Below are positions 5,475 to 44,589 of a stretch of DNA of 49,287 bases, one piece after another (position 1 is the first letter of the stretch; each line of letters begins with the position of its first letter). The notes under the pieces were generated by a model, which worked only from the letters and a program-made list of their open reading frames with translations, ran no database searches and had not been told where the DNA came from. This DNA is from a virus: UHGV virus genome UHGV-0210521; one strand, 5' to 3'. A program made the translations under genes and the position numbers.

Positions 5475-5518
5475 ACCCACGCGACCACGGGTCGTGCTTG
5501 CGCACCACTCCAAAGCAT

Positions 5519-5536: not shown

Positions 5537-5557
5537 AACGTTAGGAGGTTGTTTCTC

Positions 5558-5932: not shown

Positions 5933-6603
5933 TGAGTCTTGAGCCGAAATACATCAGCAAAGAAAATCTCGACGAACGGGCAGAAAAGCTCCTGTCGAGA
6001 TATCGAGGTGGCACTCTACTCGCCGTAGCGGCACCGCTCGATATCGAACACTTCGCAGAATTCGAGCTCGACGCCAAACTTGACTACCAGCGACTATCGG
6101 CAGATGACTCTGTGCTCGGAATGTCGGTCTTTCAAGATCTGACACTGCCTGTCGCAAGCGCTAGTGGGGCTCGCGCTCATGTTGAAATCCCTGCAAGAAC
6201 CATCGTGATTGACGATCGGGCGCTGGATGACTCACCAGAAGGTCGATTTCGGTTCACCATCGCACATGAGTGCGCGCACCTGATTTTGCACTCACGAATC
6301 TTTTATCGCGACCCTTCGATGTCATGCCCGAACAAGAGTGGTTACCTTCCGTTTACGGCTGAAACCGAAAATGTAGGGAGTGAGAAGTTCAACCGAGGCG
6401 AGTTTCAGGCTAACTATCTTGGCGCGGCCCTGCTTATGCCAAGGATGACCTTTTCACGGGCATTTCATGAGTTTGTGCCACTGCCATGGGCAGAGATGAC
6501 TGACCGTAATAAGCGTCAAGTCGTCTCGCAACTCGCAGACCTGTTCAACGTATCTCCGACCGCCGCCGCTCTTCGCATCAAACATCTCGAACTGGCCTCG
6601 TAA
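5932..6603 (+). CDS. ImmA/IrrE-family zinc metallopeptidase (HExxH)
   Basis: HECAHLILH motif; GTG start overlaps the stop of the HTH gene by 1 nt (translational coupling). Confidence 0.7.
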   Translation: MSLEPKYISKENLDERAEKLLSRYRGGTLLAVAAPLDIEHFAEFELDAKLDYQRLSADDSVLGMSVFQDLTLPVASASGARAHVEIPARTIVIDDRALDDSPEGRFRFTIAHECAHLILHSRIFYRDPSMSCPNKSGYLPFTAETENVGSEKFNRGEFQANYLGAALLMPRMTFSRAFHEFVPLPWAEMTDRNKRQVVSQLADLFNVSPTAAALRIKHLELAS

Positions 6604-6837: not shown

Positions 6838-7016
6838 CCAGGCGACATCGCAAGCACACAACTGAATAAAAACAAGAACAAAGTTCGATCCGCAGAACCG
6901 CTAGACGGGCAAGGATCACGCAATTCCTCCACAAGGAGGCGCGTGAACCTGCCCGTCTTTGCTGTCTCTGCGGCTTGGCGGACTCCTGCGGATCTCAATC
7001 CGACAGGAGAAAACCA

Positions 7017-7745
7017 ATGTCCAAGCGCTCCGACGCTCAAGAAACCTTTCGCACAATCACAATCCGCTTCAAGCACGAAGCAGACAACAACAAGAACGAG
7101 TCCACCACCGACACTTTCGACATCGACCCTGGCGAGTTCGCTCTCATGATCGCTACCGACCGCCAGCAACGCGCCGCAGCTACTGGTGTTCCGCTCGACC
7201 AGGTTAAGCCGCGCACCGCACAGAAAATCCTGGACGAGTTGTGGAACGCAGAAGAAGCAGCCACACATAAGGCGGTTCGCGCCGATCGCGGCAAGGGCAA
7301 GAAGAAATGCACGTGCGGAGCCGGGTGCGGTCCTCGACGTGGATGCCGTCTGCCAAACAACAAGCCCTTTTCGTATGAGCAGATGCTCGACATCGACCTT
7401 GACCCTGCTTCGCCAGGTATCAGCGCTGAAGACCAGGCCATCGAACGTGAGAACAGCGTCCAGCGTGCCCGTGAGCTCAAGGTGATGCGTGACGTCATCG
7501 ACGGGTTGGATCCCCAGCATCGCGAGGTGATGACGCGCCTTCTCGCAACCGACAAGCTCAATCAGGCGCAGGTGGCGCGCGACATGGGGTTGACCCGCGC
7601 TCGGGTATCGCAGCTGGTGGCAGAGGTGAAACCGATGATCCGACAGGCGGTCGAGGATGCCCGATTTAACACTTTCGGCGGTGTCGGCAGTGGGGTGAAG
7701 GGAGAAGCCAACCGGGCTACTCCCACCAACATGGAAGAAAGGTAA
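7017..7745 (+). CDS. Putative phage regulator with C-terminal sigma-70 region-4-like HTH
   Basis: C-terminal LDPQHREVMTRLLATDKLNQAQVARDMGLTRARVSQLV; ATG 7017 preceded by AGGAGA; Lys/Cys-rich segment KGKKKCTCGAGCGPRRGC. Confidence 0.5.
   Translation: MSKRSDAQETFRTITIRFKHEADNNKNESTTDTFDIDPGEFALMIATDRQQRAAATGVPLDQVKPRTAQKILDELWNAEEAATHKAVRADRGKGKKKCTCGAGCGPRRGCRLPNNKPFSYEQMLDIDLDPASPGISAEDQAIERENSVQRARELKVMRDVIDGLDPQHREVMTRLLATDKLNQAQVARDMGLTRARVSQLVAEVKPMIRQAVEDARFNTFGGVGSGVKGEANRATPTNMEER
7663..7704. repeat. Conserved 42-bp element copy A (GATTTAACA-N17-GTCGGCAGTGGGGTGAAGGGAG)
   Basis: Near-identical copies at 13465-13502 and 43902-43943; lies 46 nt upstream of the gene starting at 7751. Confidence 0.6.
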
Positions 7746-10177: not shown

Positions 10178-12145
10178 ATGCGAACACTCTTCTGCGATAT
10201 CGAGACTTTCAGTCCTGTTCAGCTCGCCAAGACAGGCGTCTACCCGTATGCCGAGCACCCCGACTTCGACCTGCTCCTCTTCGGATATTCGATTGACGGC
10301 GGCCCGGTCGAGGTCGTGGATCTTGCAGGCGGCCAGCAGATCCCCGACAATGTGCTATCAGCTCTGGTGGATCCGGGTGTGGTCAAGTGGGCGCATAACG
10401 CCGCCTTCGAACGAGTCTGCTTGTCCGCCTGGCTACGCACGCATCATCCCGAACTGCTGGATGGCGGGTTTCTTGACCCAAGGCAGTGGCGGTGCACCAT
10501 GATCTGGTCCGCCTACCTCGGACTACCGATGAGCCTCGACGCAGTAGCCACAGTTTTGAAACTTGACGTTCAAAAAGACAGCGCCGGACGCAAGCTGATC
10601 AAGCAGTTCTGCACACCCGCCACACCCTCAGTCTTGAATGGCGGCAAACACAGGAATCCACCATCAGCGGATCCCGCCGGCTGGGCACATTTCATTGACT
10701 ACAACCGGCGCGACGTCGAAGTCGAACAAGCCATCCACGACAGACTGGCGTTTTTTCCGATGCCAGACTCCGAATGGGACACCTATGCCCTTGACCAACG
10801 CATTAATGATGCCGGGATTCTTCTCGACTACACGCTCGTCGATAATGCCGTTACCGTGGATGAGCACCACCGCAACGCGTCGCTTGCACGGGCACAGAAG
10901 CTCACAGGGTTGGACAATCCCAACTCGCCAATCCAACTCAAACAATGGCTCCACAACCACGGCTGCGAACTCGAATCACTAGCGAAAGCCGACGTCGATG
11001 CCGCCCTCGACACCGCGACCGGCGCGGTGAAAGAAGTCCTCGGACTCCGTGGTGATCTGGCGAAATCTTCGGTGAAGAAATACCAGGCGATGCACAACGT
11101 CGCAGGCAGTGACGGCCGGGCACGCGGGCTGATCCAGTTCTACGGAGCAGGACGCACTGGGCGCTTCGCAGGACGCCTCGTCCAAGTCCAAAACCTGCCA
11201 AGGAATTACCTGACAGATCTCGACCAAGCACGCACGCTCGTCAGAACAGGCAACCTTGATGCGCTTGAGCTGCTCTACGAGTCCGTGCCCGACACCCTCA
11301 GCCAACTCATCCGCACCGCATTCATCCCCAGCACCGGCCACAGGTTTATCGTTGCGGACTTTTCCGCAATCGAAGCGCGCGTTATCGCATGGCTCGCAGG
11401 AGAAACAACCACCCTGGCCGCCTTCCGCGACGGTAAAGACCTCTACTGCGAAACCGCATCGCGCATGTTCGGCGTCCCGGTCGAAAAGCACGGCATTAAT
11501 GGCGAGCTACGTCAAAAGGGGAAGATCGCGGTGCTCGCCTGTGGCTATGGCGGCTCAGTTGGTGCTCTCAAAGCCATGGGAGCCCTCACCATGGGACTCG
11601 CCGAGCATGAGCTCAAACCGATCGTGGACGCATGGCGGCAAGCCAACCCACACATCGTTGGGCTCTGGGCCGACGTCGAAGAAGCCGCGATCGCCGCGAT
11701 CACCTCGCGCCAGCCGATCCGCTTGCGTAACCTGCGATTCTCCGTTGAGTCCGGGATTCTCTTCATCGAACTGCCCTCAGGCAGGAGATTAGCGTATGTG
11801 CAGCCGCGTCTGGGTGAGAATCGTTGGGGTGGCACGTCCATCACCTACACCGGCACCACCGCAGCCAGACGTTGGGGACAGCTCGAAACCTACGGCGGGA
11901 AACTTGTCGAGAATATCGTCCAAGCAATCGCCCGTGATCTGCTCGTCACTGGCATGCACGCAGTCGCCAAGGCGGGGCATCGGATTGTGATGCATGTTCA
12001 TGATGAAATTGTCATCGACGAACCCGAAAATTCCGGCTTCACCGTGACTGATGCATGTGCTCTTATGTCGACGCTCCCAGCCTGGGCCGAAGGTTTGCCG
12101 TTGGATGCGGATGGGTATGAGTGCGCCTATTACCGTAAGGATTAG
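10178..12145 (+). CDS. Family A DNA polymerase (phage Pol I-like with 3'-5' exonuclease domain)
   Basis: 655 aa; exo motif FCDIETFS, pol motifs DFSAIEARVIAWLAGE, RQKGKIAVLACGYGGS, HVHDEIVID. Confidence 0.85.
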   Translation: MRTLFCDIETFSPVQLAKTGVYPYAEHPDFDLLLFGYSIDGGPVEVVDLAGGQQIPDNVLSALVDPGVVKWAHNAAFERVCLSAWLRTHHPELLDGGFLDPRQWRCTMIWSAYLGLPMSLDAVATVLKLDVQKDSAGRKLIKQFCTPATPSVLNGGKHRNPPSADPAGWAHFIDYNRRDVEVEQAIHDRLAFFPMPDSEWDTYALDQRINDAGILLDYTLVDNAVTVDEHHRNASLARAQKLTGLDNPNSPIQLKQWLHNHGCELESLAKADVDAALDTATGAVKEVLGLRGDLAKSSVKKYQAMHNVAGSDGRARGLIQFYGAGRTGRFAGRLVQVQNLPRNYLTDLDQARTLVRTGNLDALELLYESVPDTLSQLIRTAFIPSTGHRFIVADFSAIEARVIAWLAGETTTLAAFRDGKDLYCETASRMFGVPVEKHGINGELRQKGKIAVLACGYGGSVGALKAMGALTMGLAEHELKPIVDAWRQANPHIVGLWADVEEAAIAAITSRQPIRLRNLRFSVESGILFIELPSGRRLAYVQPRLGENRWGGTSITYTGTTAARRWGQLETYGGKLVENIVQAIARDLLVTGMHAVAKAGHRIVMHVHDEIVIDEPENSGFTVTDACALMSTLPAWAEGLPLDADGYECAYYRKD

Positions 12146-13086
12146 CTGTTGATTGTCCAGATGGGATCTTGTTTCCAGCTGGGGCTGGCACCTATGTGCG
12201 TTAGATCGACGCCAGGAATTTCGGTGGGGAAACTGTCTAGGACGTCGCTGATGGCCTGTATTTCAGCGGTGAAATTTCCTCGTCGCAAGAGGAATGCGGT
12301 GAGTACCAGCGCGGTGTACATACGTCCTGAAGAATGTGTCACGGCCGATAGCGTTTGGTCGTTGCGGCGGTGTTTGACCAGTGGACGGATAACGAGTTGC
12401 CTATTCCATAGTCTGGCGTGGTGAGCGCATATGTTACGAATGTAATTCGCAGTGCGCATCCACGATTCCAACTCGTCGGCACGTGCCAAGTACTTGTCAG
12501 CAATGCGACGACGCTGTTCGAAGGGAGCCAACGAAAACAGGGTCACGAGTTGTCCGAACTCAAGAATCTCGGTAACCACCCACACCGGCAAACGACCGTC
12601 GTGGGTCTGGTTGTAATGCTTGACGAAATCTTCTGTAGAGCGCGACTGTGTTTGGGTGAGCTTCTGCGTAAAGAATGCTGCTCTGTGATTCATCGCCCCC
12701 GATGGCCAAATCCGTTCGAGGTCGAGGTGAATGAACGGATCGATCTCACCCAGCACGTGCCCCACGTCAACTCGCAGGCACACCTCCAGCTTGCATAGCG
12801 CCTGCCACACAGCCAAGCGTAGCCGCTCATCAAACTCGTACAGCTCTACCACATGCCCCATACGTGCACCGAGAACGAAATGGTCCAAACGCCGTTGCGG
12901 CGAATCAGATGGAGCGATCTGACGCAACGGGTAGGAGTATCCCGAAAGCCGGTAATAGCCGACAGTAGATAACTCGCGGCGGTAATCACCGGCATCCAAT
13001 AGGCCACGACGAGTGAGAATATTAATCTGCTCATCGATACTGGCCCACGGTTTATCGACCACCAGCCCACCTGCTTCCAAAAACAT
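12142..13086 (-). CDS. Abi_2 family abortive-infection protein (AbiD/AbiF-like)
   Basis: 314 aa on the opposite strand; N-terminal ... INILTRRGLL ... VGYYRLSGYSYP signature; convergent with the polymerase gene. Confidence 0.7.
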   Translation of the reverse strand: MFLEAGGLVVDKPWASIDEQINILTRRGLLDAGDYRRELSTVGYYRLSGYSYPLRQIAPSDSPQRRLDHFVLGARMGHVVELYEFDERLRLAVWQALCKLEVCLRVDVGHVLGEIDPFIHLDLERIWPSGAMNHRAAFFTQKLTQTQSRSTEDFVKHYNQTHDGRLPVWVVTEILEFGQLVTLFSLAPFEQRRRIADKYLARADELESWMRTANYIRNICAHHARLWNRQLVIRPLVKHRRNDQTLSAVTHSSGRMYTALVLTAFLLRRGNFTAEIQAISDVLDSFPTEIPGVDLTHIGASPSWKQDPIWTINS

Positions 13087-13464: not shown

Positions 13465-13502
13465 GATTTAACACTTTCGGGCTCGTCGGCAGTGGGGTGA
13501 GG
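13465..13502. repeat. Conserved element copy B (GATTTAACA-N17-GTCGGCAGTGGGGTGAGG)
   Basis: Intergenic, 66 nt upstream of the antirepressor start; matches copies A and C. Confidence 0.6.
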
Positions 13503-13567
13503 CCCTTAACTCCTTGTGTCGACCGGCACGATTTTTTCTCGACGGGGTCTCGGGAAGGAACCCCGCC

Positions 13568-17438: not shown

Positions 17439-18795
17439 CTACCAATCCACCGCCACCGAGTTCATCATCGACCATGACGAGGCCGCGATTCTCCTTGGCA
17501 TGGGTTTGGGCAAGAGCGTGATCACGTTGACGGCGATCTGGCAGCTCATGCTCGACTACTTCACCATCTCCCGCGTGCTGGTTGTCGCACCGCTTCGAGT
17601 AGCGCGAGACACCTGGCCCGCCGAAATTCGCAAGTGGGATCACCTTGACGGGCTCACCGTCGCGGTTGCTGTCGGCACCAAAGCCGACCGGCTGGCGGCG
17701 TTAGCCAAGTCTGCGATGGTGACCATCATCAACCGTGAAAACATTCCCTGGCTCGTGAACCAGATGGGCGGTAGCTGGCCGTTCGACATGGTCGTCATCG
17801 ACGAACTCTCCAGCTTCAAAAACCACCGTGCGAAACGGTTCACGGCGCTGGTGAAAATGCGCCCCTTCGTTAAACGCTGGGTCGGGCTGACCGGCACGCC
17901 AGCCTCGAACGGGCTCATGGACGTGTGGGCGCAGTTCCGGCTTCTCGACGGCGGCGAGCGTTTGGGCCGGTTTATTACTCGTTATCGGGAGCGTTGGTTC
18001 GTACCCGATAAACGCAACGGGATGCAGGTGTTCACCTATAAGCCCCGCGCGGGTGCCGAAGATGAGATCTACGGTGTGATTGGTGACATGACGTTGTCGA
18101 TGAGAACCACCGACCACCTGCAATTACCGGAATTGACGGTGACGACAATGCCTGTGGTGCTGGAGCCGAAAGAGCGCAAGGTCTACGAGCAACTCAAAGC
18201 TGACCTCGTTCTCGACCTTGATGGGGCGACGATTGATGCCGCGAACGCCGCAGCTTTGTCCGGCAAGCTACTCCAACTCGCGAGCGGCGCGATCTACACC
18301 AGCAACGGTCAATGGACGGCGGTTCATGAGCGCAAGCTCGACGTCCTCGAAGATCTCATCGAGGCAGCCAACGGCAACCCACTGCTCGTGGCCTACTGGT
18401 TTACCCATGACCGTCAGCGCATCACCGCCCGCTTCCCGCAGGCTCGCGAACTTAAAACAAGCGCGGATATCGAGACATGGAACAAAGGTGAGATCACCCT
18501 CGGCTTGATCCACCCAGCATCGGCGGGTCACGGATTGAACCTCCAGGCAGGCGGGCATCTGCTGGTGTGGTTCTCGTTGACGTGGAGCCTGGAGCTTTAT
18601 CAACAGACGAACGCTCGCTTGTATCGGCAAGGTCAATCCGAACCTGTGACGATCACGCATCTGGTTGCGGAAGGGACGCTCGATGAAGCCGTGCTCAAAG
18701 CTCTTGATGCGAAAGATGCTACGCAGGCTGCGTTGATCGACGCGGTCGCACACGAAATCCACACAACCACTGAAAGGACAAGCTCATGCATGTGA
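17419..18795 (+). CDS. SNF2-family DNA helicase
   Basis: GMGLGKS Walker A, VVIDELSSFKN DExx box, C-terminal helicase domain; GGAGGTG upstream of ATG 17419, overlapping the VRR-NUC gene end. Confidence 0.75.
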   Translation: MHYTPHNYQSTATEFIIDHDEAAILLGMGLGKSVITLTAIWQLMLDYFTISRVLVVAPLRVARDTWPAEIRKWDHLDGLTVAVAVGTKADRLAALAKSAMVTIINRENIPWLVNQMGGSWPFDMVVIDELSSFKNHRAKRFTALVKMRPFVKRWVGLTGTPASNGLMDVWAQFRLLDGGERLGRFITRYRERWFVPDKRNGMQVFTYKPRAGAEDEIYGVIGDMTLSMRTTDHLQLPELTVTTMPVVLEPKERKVYEQLKADLVLDLDGATIDAANAAALSGKLLQLASGAIYTSNGQWTAVHERKLDVLEDLIEAANGNPLLVAYWFTHDRQRITARFPQARELKTSADIETWNKGEITLGLIHPASAGHGLNLQAGGHLLVWFSLTWSLELYQQTNARLYRQGQSEPVTITHLVAEGTLDEAVLKALDAKDATQAALIDAVAHEIHTTTERTSSCM

Positions 18796-19244
18796 TGACG
18801 AAATACCTCGACACAAGGAAAGCCGCGATCGCAGCTCTGCAGGATTATGCGGTGATGGAACAGATCATCGAGAGTACTGACGAGCAGATCAAGGCGGCTT
18901 ATGCTGATGCTGCTAGTCCTGCTTCTCCGCGTATGGACGGCACACCACCCTCGGGTGATCTGCACGCTTCGGAGAACAGGATCGTTGCGAGCATTGAGCG
19001 GATCGATGCGTACAAGGCTCGCTACCTGCAGGCTCGCCAGTACATGGACTGGTTTCTGCCTGCGTGGGAAGTCATCGCTGAAGACGACCGCTTCATCCTC
19101 GAAGGCTTCTTCCTCAGCGAGGGGACGCAAGATGAGAAGGTGTCGATGATAGCCGATCATTTCTACGTCGAGCGTGACACGGTCTATCGGCGCAAGAACC
19201 GGGCCCTCGACAGGTTCGCCACCGCCTTGTATGGACAGCTCTAG
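18786..19244 (+). CDS. ArpU/RinA-like phage late transcriptional regulator (sigma region-4-like)
   Basis: C-terminal VSMIADHFYVERDTVYRRKNRALDRFATAL HTH-like segment; position just upstream of the packaging genes; start could be 18786 or 18795. Confidence 0.4.
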   Translation: MHVMTKYLDTRKAAIAALQDYAVMEQIIESTDEQIKAAYADAASPASPRMDGTPPSGDLHASENRIVASIERIDAYKARYLQARQYMDWFLPAWEVIAEDDRFILEGFFLSEGTQDEKVSMIADHFYVERDTVYRRKNRALDRFATALYGQL

Positions 19245-19317: not shown

Positions 19318-19362
19318 GGTGAAGCCCCAAGAACCCACACACGGGAATCTTGGGGCTTCACC
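19318..19362 (+). other. Strong stem-loop (15-bp perfect stem GGTGAAGCCCCAAGA / TCTTGGGGCTTCACC, 15-nt loop)
   Basis: Direct inspection; lies between the late-regulator gene and the HNH gene; no U-tract follows. Confidence 0.5.
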
Positions 19363-19387
19363 ACATCCGGGGGGGAAGGAGCCAGCG

Positions 19388-19765
19388 ATGCCGGTCAAAC
19401 CAGCCTCCCCGTGCTCTCACCCTGGTTGTCCCGAGCTCACCCACGACCGCTACTGCGAACAACATGCCAAGGCAGAGGACGCCCGGTATCGGAAGTATCA
19501 GCGTGATCCGAAGATCAATCGCCGCTACGGCTCACGGTGGCGCAAGATCCGCGCCGCCTACGTCGCCGCCCACCCGCTCTGCGAAGACTGCCTAGAGGCC
19601 GGTCTCTACACGCCAGTACAAGAGGTTCACCACATTCTCCCGCTCGAACACGGCGGCACCCACAACTTCGACAACCTCCGAAGCCTGTGCAAGCCTTGCC
19701 ACTCCAGGCAGACCGCGCTCGATGATGACCGATGGCGGCAACAACCTCGGGTCTACACCTACTGA
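19388..19765 (+). CDS. HNH endonuclease
   Basis: HHILPLEHGGTHNFDNLRSLCKPCH motif plus N-terminal Cys pairs; GGAAGGAG RBS upstream of ATG 19388. Confidence 0.8.
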   Translation: MPVKPASPCSHPGCPELTHDRYCEQHAKAEDARYRKYQRDPKINRRYGSRWRKIRAAYVAAHPLCEDCLEAGLYTPVQEVHHILPLEHGGTHNFDNLRSLCKPCHSRQTALDDDRWRQQPRVYTY

Positions 19766-20046
19766 CGAGCACCCACGTTGTACACTGTCGCGCCGAAGTT
19801 CTGGAACCTCAAAGTTACCCACCTTGATGGTGTTCGGCGGACACGGGGCAACGTCGAAAGCCTGGTGAGGGGGTGGGGGTTCTCAATCTCTAACCGCAGG
19901 TCAGAGGTCAGCGGGCGGGGCCAACCGTGCGCAAAGTTCCCGAATCAAACAGGGTATTGACCCGCCCCACGAATTCTTCAGCGCCTGCGAGCGCACTTTC
20001 GGCCTCCAGTCCAAGGCGACAACGGCCTAGACAAGGAGGCACATCC

Positions 20047-20619
20047 ATGGCGAAAGACGGCACGAACCGGGGCGGGCGCCGCGTGCGAGCTGGCGCGAAA
20101 CCTGATCCGTTGAATGAGAAGCTCGCAGCTGGCCGCCCCGCCACTCGGCTTGAGGATCCGCTGGGTGAGCCGTTCGATTTCGAAGGCAGCGATATTGGGG
20201 ACGGCGCGGTGCTCGCTGGGGAGACTATGCCTGAACCATCGGATTATCTCTCCGACATTCAGCGCGATGGCAAACCGCTCGGCGCTGACCTGGTCTACCG
20301 AGAAACGTGGCAGTGGCTCGATGCTCGTGGCTGTTCCCAGTTCGTCGCCCCACGTCTGATCGAAGCCTATGCGCAGGCGTTCGCCCGCTATGTGCAGTGT
20401 GAGCAGGCAATCTCCAAGTTCGGTTTGCTAGGTAAGCACCCGACCACGGGGGCTGCTATCGCTTCCCCGTTTGTTGCGATGAGCCAGTCTTTTGGTAAGC
20501 AAGCAAACGTGTATTGGTATGAGATTTTTGAAATTGTGCGGGCGAACTGCACTAGTGACTATTCGGGTGCGGCTCCTGGTGATGAGGTTATGGAGCAGTT
20601 GTTGAAAGCACGCTCGTAG
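20047..20619 (+). CDS. Terminase small subunit (P27-like)
   Basis: Pattern ... WQWLDARG ... LIEAYAQAFARYVQCEQAISKFGLL ... typical of P27-family TerS; AGGAGG upstream of ATG 20047. Confidence 0.55.
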   Translation: MAKDGTNRGGRRVRAGAKPDPLNEKLAAGRPATRLEDPLGEPFDFEGSDIGDGAVLAGETMPEPSDYLSDIQRDGKPLGADLVYRETWQWLDARGCSQFVAPRLIEAYAQAFARYVQCEQAISKFGLLGKHPTTGAAIASPFVAMSQSFGKQANVYWYEIFEIVRANCTSDYSGAAPGDEVMEQLLKARS

Positions 20620-20641: not shown

Positions 20642-20917
20642 TTATTTGGGGCGTTTTGTTGCGCTGAAGCCTGCCCCTAGCGCGCTCCCAACTCCTACGC
20701 CGATAGCTAACCCCAAGGCAATATTGTTCATAATGAACCCAAGGGCAGTGCCAGCCATCATCCCGGCCATCATTCCGTAGGCCACGGCTTTACCATCACC
20801 ATCAGAAGGCTCTTGCTCCTGCGGATTAGGTTTACTCGTTTCGTCTTGCACGCATTCCAGTATCGCACACGATTCGGGTTTTCCTCGTTTTCTTCGCTCC
20901 CTGCTCCTGTCTGACAT
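20642..20917 (-). CDS. Small glycine-zipper membrane protein (accessory gene)
   Basis: 91 aa on the opposite strand; charged N-terminus then GMMAGMMAGTALGF ... GLAIGVGVGSALGAGF glycine-zipper helices; divergent from metK. Confidence 0.5.
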   Translation of the reverse strand: MSDRSRERRKRGKPESCAILECVQDETSKPNPQEQEPSDGDGKAVAYGMMAGMMAGTALGFIMNNIALGLAIGVGVGSALGAGFSATKRPK

Positions 20918-23379: not shown

Positions 23380-24887
23380 GTGCTTTGACGTTGGGGTCCT
23401 TGTTTGATGGTTCGGGCGGTTTCCCTTTAGCTGCCAAAATGGTTGGTATCAAACCGATGTGGGCATCTGAGGTAGACCCCTTCGCTATCCGGGTAACTAA
23501 GAAAAATCTGCCTGAAGTTCGCCATGTTGGCGATATTAATTTGTTAGATGGTGGCCGGTTACAGCCGGTGGATGTGATCACGTTTGGTTCACCTTGTCAG
23601 GATTTATCTATCGCAGGTAAGCGGAGCGGGATTGATGGGTCTCGCTCCTCACTGTTTTACCAAGCTGTGCGAATTATTGAAGAAATGAGGCAAGCAACTC
23701 ATGGTGCCTACCCAAGATATGCTGTGTGGGAAAACGTGCCGGGCGTATTCTCCTCAAACCACGGAGCCGACTTCGCCGCGGTCTTGCAAGCGTTTATCGA
23801 GGTATCCTGCCAGCAAACGCCACGCATTCCTGTTCCTGAAACCAGCTGGGCAACCAGCGGATACGTCTTGGCAGATGGGGCATCACTTGCATGGCGAGTG
23901 CTCGATGCTCAATTTTTCGGAGTGCCCCAACGTCGTCGTCGTATCTTCCTTGTCGCAGATTTTGCAGGACAATCCGCACCCGAGATTCTATTTGAGTCCC
24001 AAAGCAGCACAAGGAATCCTGACGCGAGCAAAGAAGAAAAACAAAACCCTGCCCGAACAATTAGCCCAAGCACTACAGGCAACCAGTGCGGGGCGTTAAC
24101 TCTTCGTATGCGTGCCGGTAAGCCAGGCGGTGGTAAAGGGCCGTTGATTCAGCATGACCTTTCAGGCACATTAGGAACTGGTGCTGACCAAGTCTTATTT
24201 GAACCTAGCATGCAGGTGATGCTTGATTACCATCCCAATGATTCACGCATCGAAATTGGCGACCAGGTAACAAGTCAAACCTTAACTTCACGAATGGGAA
24301 CAGGAGGTGGAAATGTTCCACTCCTACTCGACCAACCTGTATACGGTATAAATTCCGTCCACGACAATCGTAAATATGGTGGTGAATGCGGTTACGAAAC
24401 CACTGTGGCAAAAACTCTTGATTTAGCTGGCGGTAATCCCGCATGCAATCAAGGCGGAATGGTCATTCTCGAACCGATCTATGCTTCTTCGAAATCTGAT
24501 CATTTCACGAGGGCAACCACAAATGTTTCAGGTGCACTTTTGGCAAGTGATTCACACCAGCCACCTATTGTCGCTAATACGATGCTTCGACCACGCAAAC
24601 TCACACCCCTCGAATGTTCTCGTCTACAAGGCTTCCCGGACTATTGGTGTGACAACCTCACAAACCTCGACCCAGACGAAGACGAAATCAGGTACTGGGA
24701 GGGCGTGTGGAAGAACTGGAACCTAGGACGGGGCGTGAAACCGAAAACTCGCAGCCAAATCACTACTTGGCTGAAAACCGCGCCAACTGATTCAGCACAG
24801 TACAAACTGTGGGGAAATGGGGTGGCATTACCAGTAGTGAAATACGTCCTCAACAGGCTACAAAAAGCAGCCAATACGACTGGATAA
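23376..24887 (+). CDS. DNA (cytosine-5)-methyltransferase
   Basis: Motif I LFDGSGG, motif IV GSPCQDLSIAG, motif VI WENVPG, motif VIII QRRRR, motif X WGNGVALP; long variable region between VIII and IX. Confidence 0.85.
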   Translation: MSALTLGSLFDGSGGFPLAAKMVGIKPMWASEVDPFAIRVTKKNLPEVRHVGDINLLDGGRLQPVDVITFGSPCQDLSIAGKRSGIDGSRSSLFYQAVRIIEEMRQATHGAYPRYAVWENVPGVFSSNHGADFAAVLQAFIEVSCQQTPRIPVPETSWATSGYVLADGASLAWRVLDAQFFGVPQRRRRIFLVADFAGQSAPEILFESQSSTRNPDASKEEKQNPARTISPSTTGNQCGALTLRMRAGKPGGGKGPLIQHDLSGTLGTGADQVLFEPSMQVMLDYHPNDSRIEIGDQVTSQTLTSRMGTGGGNVPLLLDQPVYGINSVHDNRKYGGECGYETTVAKTLDLAGGNPACNQGGMVILEPIYASSKSDHFTRATTNVSGALLASDSHQPPIVANTMLRPRKLTPLECSRLQGFPDYWCDNLTNLDPDEDEIRYWEGVWKNWNLGRGVKPKTRSQITTWLKTAPTDSAQYKLWGNGVALPVVKYVLNRLQKAANTTG

Positions 24888-24927
24888 GCGGGCGCACCTA
24901 TGGCTGTATGTACATGACCAAACAAGA
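24878..24927. repeat. 50-bp conserved element copy 1 (GACTGGAT-N12-TATGGCTGTATGTACATGACCAAACAAGA)
   Basis: Copies at 25853-25902 and 26350-26399; contains palindromic core ATGTACAT; overlaps the 3' end of the C5-MTase gene. Confidence 0.7.
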
Positions 24928-24963
24928 TCCCTAACTGGGGGAAACACGAATTGGAGGATGGTC

Positions 24964-25152
24964 ATGAGCGAACTACATATCGAGATCAGCGAAATGCTCG
25001 ACGCGGGCATCAATATCTGGGATGTCGAGGAAGCCCACGACATTGCACGAAAGTGGGACTTCCCGCTGGTTGTCGGTGCGATCGAACACGACCCGCACGG
25101 CTATTTGCGTCTGGTCGAGTCTTGGTTTGACGGTGAGGGTGTGGCGGCATGA
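24964..25152 (+). CDS. Hypothetical small acidic protein
   Basis: 62 aa, about 23 percent Asp+Glu; GGAGGA RBS 6 nt upstream of ATG 24964; downstream of repeat copy 1. Confidence 0.45.
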   Translation: MSELHIEISEMLDAGINIWDVEEAHDIARKWDFPLVVGAIEHDPHGYLRLVESWFDGEGVAA

Positions 25153-25796
25153 ACCAAATTTCGTTCGCCTCGAACCAGAGCGGGCGTAAGAAACTCGCCG
25201 ACACCATCGCCTCTCACCTTGGCGTCAGAGCGGAGTATACGGGCACGCCCACGTTCGACTACCAGATCGGAAATGCACGCCTTGATCAGGATTGGGTGCT
25301 CCACCTCCCAGAGGAGGTCGACACCGACGCCCTCACCGAGACGGCGATTACGGCTGGTTTTGCACCCACGGGCGAGGAGTACGGGCTGACGCTCGCATTC
25401 CCCACGACTGGCTGGGACGAGGCCACAGGCGCGAAGCTTGAAGCCCTGCTCGCCGCCAAGGGAGCACTCATCGCCAAGGCACTCGATATTCCAGCCACGC
25501 CCATGAAGATGGACGAGGTGGAGGGAACGGTTGAGTTTGCTTGGTTCGATCAGCTTCCTGAGGCGGAGGTGATTGAGGTGGCTAGCGTGCTTATCCAGCT
25601 GATGATCGAGCATGCCAAGACCGCCACCCGTATCTCGCCGAAGCCACCTGCGTCGGGTAATGATAAGTATGCGATGCGCTGTTGGCTGCTACGGCTGGGG
25701 ATGATTGGCAAGGGATACAAGAACGCTCGCCGCGTTCTGCTGGCAAACCTTGACGGGAACGCGGCGTGGAAAACCGCGCCACACCCGGCCGAATAA
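25149..25796 (+). CDS. Hypothetical phage protein
   Basis: 215 aa; ATGA overlap with the upstream gene; no recognisable catalytic motif. Confidence 0.5.
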   Translation: MNQISFASNQSGRKKLADTIASHLGVRAEYTGTPTFDYQIGNARLDQDWVLHLPEEVDTDALTETAITAGFAPTGEEYGLTLAFPTTGWDEATGAKLEALLAAKGALIAKALDIPATPMKMDEVEGTVEFAWFDQLPEAEVIEVASVLIQLMIEHAKTATRISPKPPASGNDKYAMRCWLLRLGMIGKGYKNARRVLLANLDGNAAWKTAPHPAE

Positions 25797-25852
25797 CCCG
25801 AGCAGAAACGAGAGACCAGAATCTCTATTTTCCTCGTTAATACGCGGAAGCC

Positions 25853-25902
25853 GACTGGATATGTGCGGCGACGTATGGCTGTATATACATGACCAAACAA
25901 GA
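25853..25902. repeat. 50-bp conserved element copy 2
   Basis: Matches copies 1 and 3; followed by AAGGAG and ATG 25919. Confidence 0.7.
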
Positions 25903-25918
25903 GATAAAGGAGAAGGTC

Positions 25919-26191
25919 ATGAACACCGAACTTACAGCCTTGAAGACCACCACAGCGGTTGCCAAGCACTACAAGATCCTGGGACACGCGATGCGCTACG
26001 GCACTCACCTGATCGCCACCAACCGCATCTGGAACGATGCCCTGGGCGCTTACGAGCATTTCGCCGCGATCTTCGAAATCCTTGGCGAAGGAAAGAACGC
26101 CCCAGTCGCCCTGGCCACCGAAGCTGATGAAGCCTTCACCGACGAAGGCCACGCAACCGCCTGGGCGATCGGCATGATCAACGCCCTCTAA
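25919..26191 (+). CDS. Hypothetical phage protein
   Basis: 90 aa from ATG 25919 (AAGGAG 6 nt upstream); track ORF begins at an ATG inside the repeat (25889). Confidence 0.5.
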   Translation: MNTELTALKTTTAVAKHYKILGHAMRYGTHLIATNRIWNDALGAYEHFAAIFEILGEGKNAPVALATEADEAFTDEGHATAWAIGMINAL

Positions 26192-26243
26192 CCACCGCGC
26201 TAGCCCCGACCCACACCGGCCGGGGCACACCACTCATAGCTTG

Positions 26244-26311
26244 CCACTCACACACCGGGGACGAATTTTCCTTCTTGTTTGGTCACATGATAGTCCCTCG
26301 TGTGTGAGTGG
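26244..26311. repeat. 12-bp perfect inverted repeat (CCACTCACACAC / GTGTGTGAGTGG) flanking a 44-bp spacer
   Basis: Direct inspection; spacer carries an inverted partial copy of the 50-bp element (TTGTTTGGTCACATGA). Confidence 0.5.
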
Positions 26312-26349
26312 CGATCATCGCTAAAATCCTTTGAAAATAAGCCAATAAT

Positions 26350-26399
26350 GACTGGATATAGTCGCGGGTCTATGGCTGTATGTACATGACCAAACAAGA
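26350..26399. repeat. 50-bp conserved element copy 3
   Basis: Matches copies 1 and 2; followed by AAGGAG and ATG 26414. Confidence 0.7.
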
Positions 26400-26413
26400 G
26401 AAGGAGCAAGGTC

Positions 26414-26608
26414 ATGAACAGCTTCGAACGCGACAAGTAAGCCATCCACGACGGTGACACCATCGAGGTAATGCGCCGCCGCAAGGTCCAGATCACCACC
26501 CTGGAGACGAAGCTCGGACGGGAGAAGAACACCTTCCGTGCCTCCATCATCGCCCGCCAGCTCGAGGCCCGCCGAGGCGAATATGCCGCGCTCGACGCCC
26601 TGATCTAA
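26414..26608 (+). pseudogene. Small ORF interrupted by an in-frame TAA at 26438-26440 (MNSFERDK*AIHDGDTIEVMRRRKVQITT ...); alternatively a 45-aa gene from ATG 26471
   Basis: Translation of the frame set by ATG 26414 hits TAA after 8 codons, then stays open for 55 more codons to TAA 26606-26608. Confidence 0.3.
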
Positions 26609-26662
26609 ACCCCGCACAAGACGCCTGAACCCCCAACGGTTTGGGTGATCTGTTCTGAGCAC

Positions 26663-26690
26663 GCCCCAGCTCCTGGGGCTCTTCTTATAC
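26663..26690 (+). terminator. Candidate intrinsic terminator (GCCCCAG-CTC-CTGGGGC followed by U-rich tract)
   Basis: 7-bp GC-rich stem, 3-nt loop, then TCTTCTTAT; lies between the small-gene cluster and TerL. Confidence 0.45.
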
Positions 26691-26712
26691 CCACCGAAGG
26701 GAGGCAACTGGC

Positions 26713-28317
26713 GTGCGGACACTCACCGACTACACACCGGCGCGGTTCATGGCTGATGGTTCACGATATGACAAGCGGAAAGCCGACTATGCGGTCGCGT
26801 TCATCCAAGCCTTGAAGCACACGAAGGGTCGCTGGTCGGGTAAGCCCTTCCAGCTGATTGATTGGCAAGAGCAGATCATCCGCGATCTATTCGGTACCGT
26901 GAAAGCTGATGGCTACCGTCAATTCACCACGGCCTATGTTGAGATCCCTAAGAAGATGGGCAAGTCGGAGCTCGCCGCTGCGGTGGCGTTGTTGCTGACG
27001 TGTGGGGATGGTGAGGAACGCGCCGAAGTTTATGGGTGTGCGGCAGACCGTCAGCAGGCTTCGATTGTGTTTGAGGTCGCGGCTGACATGGTGCGCATGA
27101 GCCCGGCGTTATCGAAGCGTGTCAAGATTCTTGCCTCGCAGAAGCGGATCATCTACAAGCCCACCAACTCCTTCTACCAAGTCCTCTCAGCGGAGGCGTA
27201 TTCGAAGCACGGATTCAACATCTCCGGCGTGGTATTCGATGAGCTACACACCCAACCCAACCGGGCGCTCTTCGACGTGATGACCAAAGGCAGTGGGGAT
27301 GCGCGCACCCAGCCGCTGTACTTCTTGATCACGACAGCGGGTACCGATACGCATAGCATTTGTTATGAGCAACACCAAAAAGCCCAAGACATCCTAGATG
27401 GCAAAAAGCACGACCTCACGTTCTACCCGGTGATCTATGGGGCGGCGCAAGATGATGATTGGACCGACGAGGACGTGTGGCATAAGGCTAATCCGAGCTT
27501 AGGGATCACTGTCCCGATCGAGAAAGTCCGTCAAGCCTGCACGAGCGCGAAACAAAACCCAGCCGAAGAAAACACCTTCCGACAACTTCGCCTCAACCAA
27601 TGGGTCAAACAAAGCGTGCGGTGGATGCCCATGCACGTGTGGAACCAAAACAACGCACCCGTCGACCTGTCAGATTTGGAGGGGCGGGTGTGTTACGGCG
27701 GCCTCGACTTGGCTTCCACGACGGACATCACTGCTTTCGTTCTCGTATTCCCACCCTACGGGGACGATGACAAATATACGGTCGCGCCATGGTTTTGGAT
27801 ACCCGAAGACAACCTCAAACTGCGCGTCGCGCGTGACCACGTGCCCTACGACTTATGGCAGAGCCAAGGCTTCCTGCAAACCACGGAGGGCAACGTCGTC
27901 CACTACGGCGCGATCGAAACCTTCATCGAGCAACTCGGTGAACGCTTCGATATTCGCGAGATTGCTTTCGACCGTTGGGGCGCAGTCCAAATGAGCCAAA
28001 ACCTCGAAGGACTCGGCTTCACCGTCGTTCCCTTCGGGCAAGGCTTCAAAGACATGAGCCCGCCCTCGAAGGAATTGATGAAGCTGGCACTTGAAGGACG
28101 CCTTGCTCATGGTGGGCACCCGGTCCTGTCGTGGATGGTTGACAACATTCACGTACGCACCGACCCAGCAGGAAACATCAAACCCGACAAACAAAAGTCC
28201 ACGGAGAAAATCGACGGCGTGGTCGCAACAATCATGGCCCTCGACCGCGCCATCCGAAACGGCAGCGGGCGTGTCAGCGGCAGTGTTTATGACGAGCGCG
28301 GCCTACTCGTGCTGTGA
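26713..28317 (+). CDS. Terminase large subunit
   Basis: 534 aa; Walker A-like VEIPKKMGKSEL; N-terminal ATPase and C-terminal nuclease regions typical of TerL; GTG start with GAAGGGAGG RBS. Confidence 0.85.
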   Translation: MRTLTDYTPARFMADGSRYDKRKADYAVAFIQALKHTKGRWSGKPFQLIDWQEQIIRDLFGTVKADGYRQFTTAYVEIPKKMGKSELAAAVALLLTCGDGEERAEVYGCAADRQQASIVFEVAADMVRMSPALSKRVKILASQKRIIYKPTNSFYQVLSAEAYSKHGFNISGVVFDELHTQPNRALFDVMTKGSGDARTQPLYFLITTAGTDTHSICYEQHQKAQDILDGKKHDLTFYPVIYGAAQDDDWTDEDVWHKANPSLGITVPIEKVRQACTSAKQNPAEENTFRQLRLNQWVKQSVRWMPMHVWNQNNAPVDLSDLEGRVCYGGLDLASTTDITAFVLVFPPYGDDDKYTVAPWFWIPEDNLKLRVARDHVPYDLWQSQGFLQTTEGNVVHYGAIETFIEQLGERFDIREIAFDRWGAVQMSQNLEGLGFTVVPFGQGFKDMSPPSKELMKLALEGRLAHGGHPVLSWMVDNIHVRTDPAGNIKPDKQKSTEKIDGVVATIMALDRAIRNGSGRVSGSVYDERGLLVL

Positions 28318-44337: not shown

Positions 44338-44543
44338 ACACGCTCGCCGCTCCTGTTGATCAACTGGCCCAACCTGACGTGTTCGCCCGAGAACTCGCCT
44401 TCATCACGGACTCTCACACGTTGAGCGTGCTGGCGGGGCGGGGCGTGCTCACGCCCGCAGAGTATCAGCGTGCTCACCGGTTGTTATGGAAGGCGTGGAC
44501 GCCGATCTATCAACCATCAATAGTGGGCGAAACGACTGGATAA
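44334..44543 (+). CDS. Hypothetical small protein
   Basis: 69 aa; ATGA overlap with the upstream gene. Confidence 0.4.
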   Translation: MNTLAAPVDQLAQPDVFARELAFITDSHTLSVLAGRGVLTPAEYQRAHRLLWKAWTPIYQPSIVGETTG

Positions 44544-44589
44544 ACACTTGGTTTAGAGCGTGTATAGACCTAACGCGAAAGGAGAAAAC

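What the first reader, a model, noticed from the sequence alone, without database searches (positions are those of the whole stretch)
24878..26426. Three copies of a 50-bp conserved element, each preceding a small unknown gene, between the methyltransferases and TerL
The element GACTGGAT-N12-TATGGCTGTATGTACATGACCAAACAAGA occurs at 24878-24927, 25853-25902 and 26350-26399. Each copy is followed by a Shine-Dalgarno sequence and an ATG 6 nt later. The three downstream proteins are unrelated, so the repeat is a shared control element (promoter, operator or 5' UTR structure with palindromic core ATGTACAT), not a gene duplication. This looks like a set of separately inserted, co-regulated accessory genes next to the methylation module, a place where anti-defence genes would be expected.
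Basis: seen in the sequence. Interest (0 to 1): 0.6.

Follow-up and report, generated by a model that had tools for sequence, protein, structure and literature searches.

The report
Repeated promoter cassette before small genes
The repeated 50-bp sequence is real and is most likely a portable promoter-plus-leader module that a whole order of prophages (Ca. Heliusvirales) places in front of small, swappable accessory genes just upstream of the terminase gene; this is a useful annotation, but an ordinary kind of element.

Summary
The three direct copies are confirmed (24877-24927, 25852-25902, 26349-26399). A diverged fourth copy lies at 44528-44586. The window is a Mobiluncus prophage of the Heliusvirales type.

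The same element occurs 2-4 times per prophage across many Actinomycetota. It is always on the terL strand and 20-50 nt upstream of an SD and start codon. It precedes about 13 unrelated small-protein families.

Two blocks are nearly invariant: aaaa[C/T]GACTGGATA and TATGGCTGTAT[G/A]TACAT. Exactly 12 free bases separate them.

Lower-GC relatives carry a homologous element at the same place, in front of homologous genes. There it reads as a textbook sigma-70 promoter, TTGATA/TTGCTA-17-TAATAT. This is the main reason to call the window's element a promoter.

The actinobacterial version has no TANNNT -10 in any usable register, so it may need a factor. No transcription start site has been mapped.

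The leader is inherited with the promoter. In all three window copies CAUGACC pairs with GGUCAUG across the start codon.

The downstream proteins are a 62-aa acidic helical protein coupled to an amidoligase-related protein, an Nmad4 protein, and a 64-aa protein interrupted by a stop codon. An anti-defence role is untested.

This is a new member of a known kind.

The parts
24877..24927 (+). Element copy 1. The -35-like block GACTGGATA overlaps the Dcm stop codon (TAA at 24885-24887). It is followed by a 12-nt free spacer, then TATGGCTGTATGTACAT, then the start of the leader.
24913..24966 (+). Leader 1. The 5' arm CATGACC (24913-24919) pairs with GGTCATG (24960-24966), which contains the start codon. 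The SD GGAGG (24953-24957) lies in the loop.
   Evidence: MFE -16.5 kcal/mol, z -2.5
24964..25152 (+). Gene A: 62 aa, net charge -11, confident four-helix model, no family or fold match.
25149..25796 (+). Gene B: 215 aa, start overlaps the end of gene A (ATGA). It matches phrog_2443. Distant homologues carry Pfam Amidoligase_2. It is 100% identical to Mobiluncus holmesii ATCC 35242 HMPREF0576_0849.
25852..25902 (+). Element copy 2, with the dyad TGTATATACA.
25888..25921 (+). Leader 2 hairpin: CATGACC (25888-25894) pairs with GGTCATG (25915-25921). The SD AAGGAG lies in the loop.
   Evidence: -8.6 kcal/mol, z -3.7
25919..26191 (+). Gene C: 90 aa, Pfam Nmad4 (nucleotide modification associated domain 4).
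   Evidence: E 7e-22
26244..26312 (+). Long hairpin between cassettes, probably an insulator or terminator without a U-tail. Its loop holds an inverted remnant of the leader (26273-26287, minus strand).
   Evidence: -57.3 kcal/mol for 26192-26348, z -5.7
26349..26399 (+). Element copy 3.
26385..26416 (+). Leader 3 hairpin: CATGACC (26385-26391) pairs with GGTCATG (26410-26416).
   Evidence: -8.7 kcal/mol
26414..26608 (+). Gene D: 64 codons with an in-frame TAA at 26438-26440, where relatives have CAA.
26663..26689 (+). Terminator-like hairpin GCCCCAGCTCCTGGGGC plus a T-rich tail, 34 nt before the terL start (26713). A comparable hairpin and T-run precede terL in 46 of 69 distinct related loci.
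44528..44586 (+). Fourth, diverged family member (ACGACTGGATAA-N10-TTTAGAGCGTGTATAGAC..CGAAAGGAG). It lies upstream of the GTG at 44590 of a large serine recombinase.
   Evidence: best window hit, E 1e-4, of an HMM built only from non-window members

Best explanation
Each copy is a portable promoter-plus-leader module. It heads a small, separately exchangeable accessory transcription unit placed between the SAM-synthetase/DNA-methyltransferase module and terL.

Shown:
- The module consists of an A-tract, a -35-like block ([C/T]GACTGGATA), 12 free bases, an AT-rich block (TATGGCTGTAT[G/A]TACAT) and an A/C-rich leader that runs to the SD and ATG.
- It is conserved, oriented and positioned like an expression signal in prophages of many Actinomycetota.
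- It is homologous to a near-consensus sigma-70 promoter at the same place in lower-GC relatives.
- The leader travels with the promoter rather than with the gene.

Inferred:
- RNA polymerase starts within or just after TGTAYRTACAT, roughly at window 24912-24921, 25887-25896 and 26384-26393.
- The actinobacterial version has lost the canonical -10 and part of the -35, so it probably needs, or is tuned by, an extra host or phage factor. The dyad TGTA-YR-TACA could be that factor's site.
- The CAUGACC/GGUCAUG helix either caps the 5' end of the mRNA or masks the start codon in transcripts that read in from upstream.
- The shared sequence also gives phages a place to swap cassettes by homologous recombination.
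For: Reality and spread:
- nhmmer finds 184 copies (124 unique over positions -30 to +80), 2-4 per locus. They occur in prophages of Mobiluncus, Varibaculum, Schaalia, Gleimia, Winkia, Actinotignum, Trueperella, Arcanobacterium, Corynebacterium, Brevibacterium, Propionimicrobium, Atopobium, Collinsella and others.
- No copy lies on the strand opposite to terL.

Expression-signal geometry:
- 171 of 184 copies have an SD and start codon 20-50 nt after the core.

Promoter-like block structure:
- Two nearly invariant blocks are separated by a spacer of free sequence.
- The spacer is exactly 12 nt in 37 of 37 unique copies from loci chosen only by TerL similarity.
- An A-tract lies just upstream.

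Homology to canonical promoters:
- 41 TerL-related loci with mean GC 47% carry 1-6 copies of gAAATGACTTG[A/C]TAT-N10-TT[T/C]AGAG..ATAT.., upstream of small genes before terL.
- In L052 the promoter scan flags six of these copies as TTGATA-17-TAATAT.
- Bridging forms exist in L034, L014 and L195.
- An HMM built from ten non-window members ranks the four window sites as its top four hits.
- 51 of 66 cargo proteins of the lower-GC type are homologous to actinobacterial cargo. Of these, 35 are relatives of gene B.

Constraint:
- The gene A+B cassette is only 64-66% identical to about 20 relatives, while the core of the element is unchanged.

Separate transcription units:
- Strong hairpins follow gene C and gene D.
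- Terminator-like hairpins lie upstream of 22% of copies, against 6% of control positions.
- L052 has terminators between cassettes.

Leader:
- The same gene family occurs behind different leader types, and CATGACC goes with GGTCATG.
- GGTCATG is the start context in 28% of element-associated starts, against 0.55% of 542 other starts.
- The helix is predicted in all three window copies.
Against: - No transcription start site or RNA polymerase binding has been measured.
- In the window's copies no register gives a TANNNT -10 at 16-19 bp from a -35-like hexamer. CTGTAT sits where relatives have TAATAT, TATGGC lacks the final T, and TATGTA would be 20 bp from TGGATA.
- The window's promoter scan did not flag the copies.
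- Copy 1 follows Dcm with no terminator. By my criteria none of the three window copies has a canonical terminator within 110 nt upstream. Read-through from upstream could therefore also express these genes.
- Copies are related by descent, so the enrichment statistics overstate the number of independent events.
- Variants of the leader helix are few: two wobble-preserving changes and two helix-end mismatches.
Confidence: 0.7

Rival explanations
1. The element acts only in RNA. The genes are read from a long upstream transcript (terS-metK-methyltransferases), and the element is a translational operator, processing site or protein-binding leader that controls each small gene after transcription.
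For: - Start regions are unusually complementary to the element. Duplex energy is -10 kcal/mol or lower in 52% of element-associated starts, against 11% of background starts.
- Three leader types pair with different parts of the element. One is ACAGCCAUG with UAUGGCUGU, which would need that block to be transcribed.
- No canonical -10 is present in the window's copies.
- Copy 1 abuts the Dcm gene with no terminator between them.
Against: - The upstream block and the fixed-length spacer of free sequence show no pairing or covariation. That pattern fits protein contacts on DNA.
- Homologous elements in relatives are near-consensus promoters, with terminators between cassettes.
- The ACAGCCATG start context also occurs behind lower-GC elements that lack TATGGCTGT, so that pairing may be accidental.
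- Rfam gives no match in this region.
Confidence: 0.12
2. The copies are late promoters that double as loading sites for a phage antiterminator, like lambda PR'/qut. Without the factor each gives a short transcript for its small gene. With the factor the polymerase reads through the conserved terminator into terL and the structural genes.
For: - A terminator-like hairpin with a T-run lies about 30 nt before the terL start in 46 of 69 distinct loci. The stems differ in sequence, and there is no room for a promoter after the hairpin.
- Motifs that a sigma factor does not need are conserved inside the promoter: TTAGAG or TATGG in the spacer, and the dyad.
- The last copy, a short gene, a terminator and terL mimic the order PR'-6S-tR'-late genes (comparison from my own knowledge of lambda).
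Against: - No Q-like protein was identified.
- An ArpU-family late activator (18786-19244) sits upstream of HNH/terS, as in phages where late genes are switched on by activation at the terS promoter.
- Several copies per phage, and one before a recombinase, are not expected of a late-operon switch.
Confidence: 0.08
3. The element is mainly a DNA site for something other than transcription: a recombination site for cassette exchange (integron-like), a terminase recognition site, or a ParB-type site.
For: - Homology with relatives often starts exactly at the first base of the element.
- The same leader is found before different genes.
- An IS110-family element has inserted inside one copy.
- Serine recombinases and a ParB-domain methyltransferase are encoded in the window.
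Against: - The strict orientation and the 20-50 nt distance to an SD and start codon are not needed for such sites.
- There is no element after the last cassette.
- There are no attC-like inverted repeats and no integron integrase.
- The relatives' versions are canonical promoters.
- Cassette exchange is explained equally well by ordinary homologous recombination at a shared promoter.
Confidence: 0.05

Closest known systems
Morons of lambdoid and other temperate phages: an accessory gene with its own promoter and terminator inserted between conserved genes (from my own knowledge of Hendrix/Juhala, about 2000)
   Same: - Small accessory genes of variable presence lie between conserved modules.
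- Each has a promoter-like sequence in front, and several have a hairpin behind.
   Different: All cassettes share one highly conserved promoter-leader sequence. That sequence is kept across prophages of two bacterial phyla. Classical morons each carry an unrelated promoter.
Families of near-identical phage promoters repeated along a genome, such as the phiC31 early promoters and the T7 or SPO1 promoters (from my own knowledge)
   Same: Several copies of a conserved sequence longer than the two hexamers lie in front of different genes. The actinobacterial version departs from the host consensus.
   Different: - No phage RNA polymerase gene was found among the window's annotated genes, and no complete phage sigma factor was identified.
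- The lower-GC relatives' version is an ordinary sigma-70-type promoter.
- The copies are confined to one short region plus one site before the recombinase.
Start-associated sequences (SAS/ESAS) of Cluster K mycobacteriophages (PMC3203893)
   Same: An asymmetric repeat in one orientation lies upstream of start codons of unrelated genes in actinobacterial phages. It is conserved across subclusters and its function has not been tested by experiment.
   Different: - SAS is 13 bp, contains the SD and lies 3-7 bp from the start codon.
- ESAS is a 17-bp inverted repeat.
- This element is about 50 bp, has two blocks, ends before the SD, and has promoter homologues.
Ltr (RinA/ArpU/LtrC)-dependent late promoters of Gram-positive phages (PMC3753634)
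   Same: A phage of similar layout encodes an ArpU-like protein. The element lies in the packaging region.
   Different: Ltr sites are three 7-nt direct repeats placed right after the ltr gene and upstream of terS. The element has no such repeats and lies 4.3-5.7 kb downstream of terS.
IS10 fold-back inhibition and the Mu com/mom leader: start-site masking by an upstream complementary segment (from my own knowledge)
   Same: A segment at or near the promoter is complementary to the start codon region, with the SD left in the loop. As with mom, the genes sit next to DNA-modification genes.
   Different: It is unknown whether the 5' arm lies upstream or downstream of the transcription start. No Com-like factor was identified. 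The helix is present in only about half of the leaders.

Membership tests
Sigma-70/sigma-A type promoter | A -35 hexamer resembling TTGACA | tested here: inconclusive
   TGGATA (4 of 6) aligns with the TTGATA/TTGCTA of relatives. An overlapping ATGACT/CGACTG is an alternative. The window's promoter scan did not flag the copies.
Sigma-70/sigma-A type promoter | A -10 hexamer (TATAAT/TANNNT) 16-19 bp downstream of the -35 | tested here: not met
   Window copies have CTGTAT at 17 bp, TGTATG at 18 bp and TATGTA at 20 bp. TATGGC lacks the final T. The feature is met in homologous lower-GC copies: TTGATA-17-TAATAT six times in L052, and TAATAT, GAATAT or TG-extended GATATA in 53 of 60 unique copies.
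Sigma-70/sigma-A type promoter | Upstream of a gene, on the same strand, at a 5'-UTR-like distance | tested here: met
   171 of 184 copies have an SD and start codon 20-50 nt after the core. None lies on the opposite strand.
Sigma-70/sigma-A type promoter | A mapped transcription start or RNA polymerase binding | not testable with these tools
   No transcript data are available.
Moron-type transcription unit | Variable presence between conserved neighbours in related phages | tested here: met
   There are 13 cargo families and 1-6 cassettes per locus, and homology breaks at the element.
Moron-type transcription unit | Its own terminator downstream | tested here: inconclusive
   Strong hairpins follow gene C and gene D. 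None was detected after gene B. Terminators lie between cassettes in L052.
Ltr (RinA/ArpU)-dependent late promoter | Three 7-nt direct repeats immediately after the ltr gene, upstream of terS | tested here: not met
   The element has no such repeats and lies between dcm and terL. The ArpU-like gene is at 18786-19244 and terS at 19927-20619.
Cluster K SAS/ESAS | A 13-bp motif that contains the SD and lies 3-7 bp from the start codon, with or without a 17-bp inverted repeat | tested here: not met
   The conserved core ends 14-36 nt before the ATG. The SD lies outside the core. There is no 17-bp inverted repeat.
Described cis-regulatory RNA (Rfam 15) | A match to any covariance model | tested here: not met
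   In 24000-27000, at E up to 10, there are only two hits, both well below their gathering scores and outside the elements.
Integron attC cassette site | Imperfect inverted repeats 3' of each cassette, plus an integron integrase | tested here: not met
   The element lies 5' of each cassette, with none after the last. The only internal inverted repeat is the 10-bp dyad. The recombinases present are large serine recombinases.
Fold-back inhibition (IS10 type) | A segment complementary to the RBS or start codon that lies upstream of the element's own transcription start | tested here: inconclusive
   The complementarity is met. The position of the arm relative to the transcription start cannot be determined.

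The most novel reading that the evidence does not exclude
The actinobacterial version is no longer a host sigma-A promoter. It is instead the target of a phage-encoded specificity factor acquired when this phage lineage moved from Bacillota into Actinomycetota. A candidate is the sigma-70-region-4 protein at 6975-7745, which has no homologue in 50,697 phage records, whereas the ArpU-like protein does. In addition, the anti-start-codon arm lies inside the promoter, so only transcripts that begin at the cassette's own promoter are translated and read-through transcripts are masked.
Probability: 0.2. Interest if true: 0.6.

Novelty: new member of a known kind. Interest (0 to 1): 0.4.

Why it matters
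- It gives a concrete, searchable signature for finding accessory-gene cassettes in a very widespread phage order. The signatures are CTGGATA-N12-TATGGCTGTATRTACAT in Actinomycetota and CTTG[A/C]TA-N11-[T/C]AGAG in lower-GC hosts.
- The main paper on that order (Ca. Heliusvirales) does not use the words 'promoter' or 'intergenic' in its text.
- It defines a set of about a dozen small, mostly acidic proteins that these phages express from a common signal next to their DNA-modification genes. That is a sensible shortlist for anti-restriction or modification-accessory functions.
- The element is a natural pair for studying how a promoter is re-specified across a host-phylum boundary: it is canonical in Bacillota and non-canonical but frozen in Actinomycetota.
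- It could also serve as a compact expression part for poorly tractable Actinomycetaceae.

Tried and rejected
- Rfam, E-value mode, on 24000-27000: no relevant family.
- Full-text search for the core sequence: only unrelated eukaryotic primers.
- Sigma-54 reading (GG/GC spacing does not fit) and a T7-like promoter reading (the AATACGACT resemblance occurs in copy 1 only, and no phage RNA polymerase gene was found among the annotated ORFs): rejected by inspection.
- Pairing between the two conserved blocks, or a conserved hairpin inside the element: none seen. Folds of the full element differ between copies.
- The palindrome as a repressor operator shared with the immunity region: exact TGTANNTACA occurs only in the three copies. 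No link to the XRE/ImmA module was found.
- Upstream intrinsic terminators as a universal feature: only 22% of copies against 6% of controls, and none in the window by my criteria.
- ArpU/Ltr-type site: the architecture does not fit.
- Co-occurrence of the sigma-70-region-4 protein with the element: the locus search finds only close relatives (16 contigs, several shared with element-bearing genomes). It cannot show absence, so it is uninformative.
- Function of gene A: nine close homologues only. The AlphaFold2 model has pLDDT 90 and four helices. There is no significant match in PDB or BFVD.
- PADLOC on the four small proteins: nothing.
- Start-codon pairing in the lower-GC family: much weaker, 14-17% strong duplexes against 1-5% in controls. 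It is not a family-wide feature.


Full report
**1. The observation**

The repeat is real. The repeat finder returns one family of three direct 51-nt copies at 24877-24927, 25852-25902 and 26349-26399, 82-84% identical to the reference copy. The 29-nt core TATGGCTGTAT[G/A]TACATGACCAAACAAGA matches with 0, 1 and 0 mismatches, and no match appears in 100 shuffles.

- The free gap after GACTGGAT is 13 nt, not 12.
- Copy 2 has TGTATATACA, not ATGTACAT.
- Copy 1 has 25 extra bases before its SD.
- The start codons are at 24964, 25919 and 26414, which is 6, 6 and 7 nt after the SD.
- Copy 1 heads two overlapping genes, A and B.
- The third gene carries an in-frame TAA at 26438-26440, where relatives have CAA.
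- A partial inverted copy lies at 26273-26287 on the minus strand.
- A diverged fourth copy lies at 44528-44586.

**2. Context**

The window is a prophage. Pfam, PHROGs and NCBIfam give this order:
- type I R-M genes (40-5474)
- XRE repressor and ImmA (5498-6603)
- a protein with only a sigma-70 region 4 (6975-7745)
- DUF2800 nuclease, Enc34-type SSB, family A polymerase
- AbiD on the minus strand
- Bro/ANT, D5 primase, SNF2
- an ArpU-like regulator (18786-19244)
- HNH (19319-19765) and TerS (19927-20619)
- SAM synthetase, ParB-N6/N4 methyltransferase, Dcm
- the repeat region
- TerL (26713-28317), portal, protease, head and tail genes, holin, amidase
- three serine recombinases

Gene B is 100% identical to a Mobiluncus holmesii ATCC 35242 protein. 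M. curtisii and M. mulieris prophages are the nearest DNA relatives. The only similar record in the phage collection is Oscillospiraceae phage NatCom_27610, classified in Ca. Heliusvirales, with TerL DNA 74% identical.

The published description of that order lists the same marker genes. It reports Dcm in 67% and SAM synthetase in 59% of genomes, and a subfamily on Actinomycetaceae. It never uses the words promoter or intergenic.

**3. The element in relatives**

The exact core occurs in six IMG/VR contigs. A profile search of 80 loci chosen only by TerL similarity, plus loci from a genome scan, gives 184 copies (124 unique over positions -30 to +80), 2-4 per locus.

Hosts named in the records are:
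- Actinomycetaceae: Mobiluncus, Varibaculum, Schaalia, Gleimia, Winkia, Actinotignum, Actinobaculum, Trueperella, Arcanobacterium
- Other Actinomycetes: Corynebacterium, Brevibacterium, Helcobacillus, Gulosibacter, Propionimicrobium, Tessaracoccus
- Coriobacteriia: Atopobium, Olegusella, Collinsella

The consensus is aaaa[C/T]GACTGGATAag, then about 10 free GC-rich bases, then cTATGGCTGTAT[G/A]TACAT, then an A/C-rich stretch. In the TerL-chosen loci the distance between CTGGATA and TATGGCTG is exactly 12 nt in 37 of 37 unique copies, although 6-18 nt was allowed. Within the second block the only variable position is the centre of the dyad TGTA-YR-TACA.

No copy lies on the strand opposite to terL. 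171 of 184 copies are followed by an SD and start codon 20-50 nt after the core. The downstream proteins fall into 13 BLASTP families. The largest are Nmad4-like (66 loci), gene-A-like (44 loci) and a 111-aa family (25 loci).

Homology between the window and about 20 relatives begins at base 24870, the start of the element. It then runs through genes A and B at only 64-66% identity, while the core stays unchanged.

**4. Why a promoter**

TerL relatives that lack the exact element (41 loci, mean GC 47%) have their own repeat at the same place, 1-6 copies on the terL strand in front of small genes. Its consensus is gAAAT[G/T]ACTTG[A/C]TAT-N10-TT[T/C]AGAG[T/G/C][G/T]A(T)ATAT[G/A]T..TACC[G/A]AAA. 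NatCom_27610 has two copies.

This repeat is a textbook sigma-70-type promoter:
- In L052 the scan tool flags six copies of TTGATA-17-TAATAT. These are six of its nine promoter-like hits. Terminators lie between cassettes.
- Among 60 unique copies the hexamer at 17-bp spacing is TAATAT, GAATAT or the TG-preceded GATATA in 53.

The two types are homologous rather than merely both promoter-like:
- They share non-consensus features: GACT before the -35, TAGAG or TATGG in the spacer, TATGTAC after it, and ACCGAAA or ACCAAAC in the leader.
- Bridging forms exist. L034 has CTGGATAT with TAATAT. L014 and L195 have CTTGCTAT and TAGAGTG followed by TGTATGTACATGACC. The window's fourth copy is another bridging form.
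- An HMM built from ten non-window members ranks 44529-44575 (E 1e-4), copy 3 (E 0.03), copy 1 (E 0.8) and copy 2 (E 9) as its top four window hits.
- 51 of 66 cargo proteins behind the lower-GC type are homologous to actinobacterial cargo. Of these, 35 are relatives of gene B at 28-35% identity.

In register, the window's TGGATA corresponds to the -35. CTGTAT sits where TAATAT is, and TATGGC sits where TAGAG(T) is.

**5. What remains uncertain**

- In the actinobacterial version no register gives TANNNT at a normal spacing, and the scan tool does not flag the window's copies.
- The sequence is nevertheless frozen across many genera. That points to recognition by something more than the two sigma contacts. 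The dyad and the conserved spacer motif are candidates for a factor site.
- Exact TGTANNTACA occurs nowhere else in the window, so I could not tie it to the immunity repressor.
- The ArpU-like protein is the expected late activator. However, its family acts through three 7-nt direct repeats right after its own gene and upstream of terS, which does not fit this element.
- The sigma-70-region-4 protein has no homologue in 50,697 phage records, whereas the ArpU-like protein has 44%-identical homologues in Oscillospiraceae Heliusvirales. That makes it a lead and no more. The co-occurrence scan could not test it.
- Terminator-like hairpins upstream of the copies are enriched but not universal: 22% against 6%.
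- In the window, strong hairpins follow gene C (26244-26312, z -5.7) and gene D (26663-26679). Nothing separates Dcm from copy 1.

**6. The leader**

The stretch from position 38 of the element to the ATG is inherited as a unit, independently of the gene behind it. The same gene family occurs with different leader types.

Three main leader types are seen:
- Type 1, present in all three window copies, pairs CAUGACC with GGUCAUG. This puts the AUG in the 3' arm and the SD in the loop. The fold energies are -8.6 to -16.5 kcal/mol.
- Type 3 keeps the CAU/AUG pairing but uses ACCAAAC/GUUUGGU for the rest of the helix.
- Type 2 has a local hairpin UACCGAAACGGUA, and its start context ACAGCCAUG is complementary to UAUGGCUGU.

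Supporting numbers:
- GGTCATG is the start context of 28% of element-associated starts, against 0.55% of 542 other starts in the same loci.
- The duplex between start region and element is -10 kcal/mol or lower in 52%, against 11% of background starts.
- If the transcript starts at A37, bases 2-8 are paired in 63% of leaders, against 9% of shuffles.

These counts are inflated by shared descent, and informative variants are few. The type 2 start context also occurs behind lower-GC promoters that lack TATGGCTGT. In the lower-GC family the pairing is much weaker.

The helix is therefore a supported feature of the window's copies. Without a mapped transcription start I cannot say whether it is a 5'-terminal stabiliser, a brake on translation, or a mask for read-through transcripts.

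**7. The proteins**

- Gene A: 62 aa, net charge -11. It has only nine close homologues, a confident four-helix model (pLDDT 90) and no significant match in PDB or BFVD.
- Gene B: matches phrog_2443. Its distant homologues carry Pfam Amidoligase_2.
- Gene C: an Nmad4 domain protein.
- Gene D: a 64-aa basic protein, broken here by a stop codon.

None hits PADLOC. The five largest cargo families are acidic, with pI 4.4-5.0. An anti-restriction or modification-accessory role is plausible from the neighbourhood, but it is not shown.

**8. Comparison and verdict**

The element works like the promoter of a moron-type unit and like the repeated promoter families of other phages. It fails the membership tests for:
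- Ltr-type late promoters
- Cluster K SAS/ESAS
- integron attC sites
- any Rfam family

For the class 'sigma-70-type promoter', the relatives pass and the window's copies fail the -10 test.

The element does not seem to have been described. The order's main paper does not mention promoters, and a sequence search of the literature finds nothing relevant. It is, however, a new member of a known kind. I put the probability that it is a transcription start signal at about 0.7, and score interest at 0.4.

Noticed in passing
window 26438-26440: In-frame TAA at codon 9 of the third small gene (26414-26608). Relatives L002, L006 and L012 have CAA there. The copy in the near-identical contig (L006) differs at only 2 of 1411 bases in this stretch. 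This could be a pseudogene, a sequencing error, or a restart at the ATG at 26471.
   Followed up: partly
L012 4188-5700 (IMGVR_UViG_2919380674_000001): An IS110-family transposase gene (Pfam PF01548 and PF02371; 4232-5311, minus strand) sits in an insertion of about 1.4 kb that splits an element between ...CTATGGCTG and TATGTACATGACC.... That family of insertion sequences is known for sequence-specific targets, so the conserved promoter may be its target.
   Followed up: partly
window 26663-26689; 46 of 69 distinct TerL loci: A terminator-like hairpin with a T-run lies about 30 nt before the terL start codon across the phage order. The stems differ in sequence (for example GCCCCATACGGTTGGGGC, ACAGCCGCGAAGGGCTGT, GGTCGCTTCAGGCGGCT). 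terL expression must therefore depend on read-through or antitermination.
   Followed up: partly
window 7663-7704, 13465-13506, 43902-43943: A second repeat family, GATTTAACA-N12-GTCGGCAGTGGGGTGA. At least two of the three copies lie just upstream of an ORF start (13514 Bro/ANT and 43954). The copy at 43902 follows the endolysin terminator and forms a GTGGGGT/ACCCCAC hairpin with the SD in the loop. It may be another promoter-leader family.
   Followed up: partly
window 26244-26312: A hairpin of about 20 bp (region fold -57.3 kcal/mol, z -5.7). Its 30-nt loop holds an inverted remnant of the leader (TGTGACCAAACAAGAAGGA on the minus strand). A sigma-70-like TCGCCA-16-TATCAT lies on the minus strand. 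No ORF follows it.
   Followed up: partly
window 24876-24887 and 44532-44543: Dcm and a 69-aa ORF (44335-44543) both end with the same codons, ACG ACT GGA TAA (..TTG*), inside the -35-like block of the element. The promoter therefore overlaps the end of the upstream gene in both places.
   Followed up: no
window 6975-7745: A 256-aa protein whose only recognisable domain is sigma-70 region 4. It has no tblastn hit in 50,697 phage records, whereas the ArpU-like protein (18786-19244) has 44%-identical homologues in Oscillospiraceae Heliusvirales phages. Its 3' end overlaps a copy of the GATTTAACA repeat.
   Followed up: partly
window 20642-20917 (minus strand): A 91-aa membrane-like ORF on the opposite strand, in the 348-bp gap between terS and the SAM synthetase gene. 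It looks like an inserted accessory gene.
   Followed up: no
window 12142-13086 (minus strand); 40-5474: An AbiD/Abi_2 gene lies on the opposite strand inside the replication module. Type I restriction-modification genes lie next to the immunity region. Both look like defence cargo of, or next to, the prophage.
   Followed up: no
window 44590-45840, 45828-47414, 47500-49287: Three large serine recombinase genes lie in tandem at the end of the prophage. The first is preceded by the diverged fourth copy of the element.
   Followed up: no
L052 about 1038-5300; L210 6140-6200: In lower-GC relatives an inverted repeat (ATATACACAAT ... ATTTGTGTAATATAT) lies just upstream of the -35 of several element copies. 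It could be an operator or activator site.
   Followed up: no
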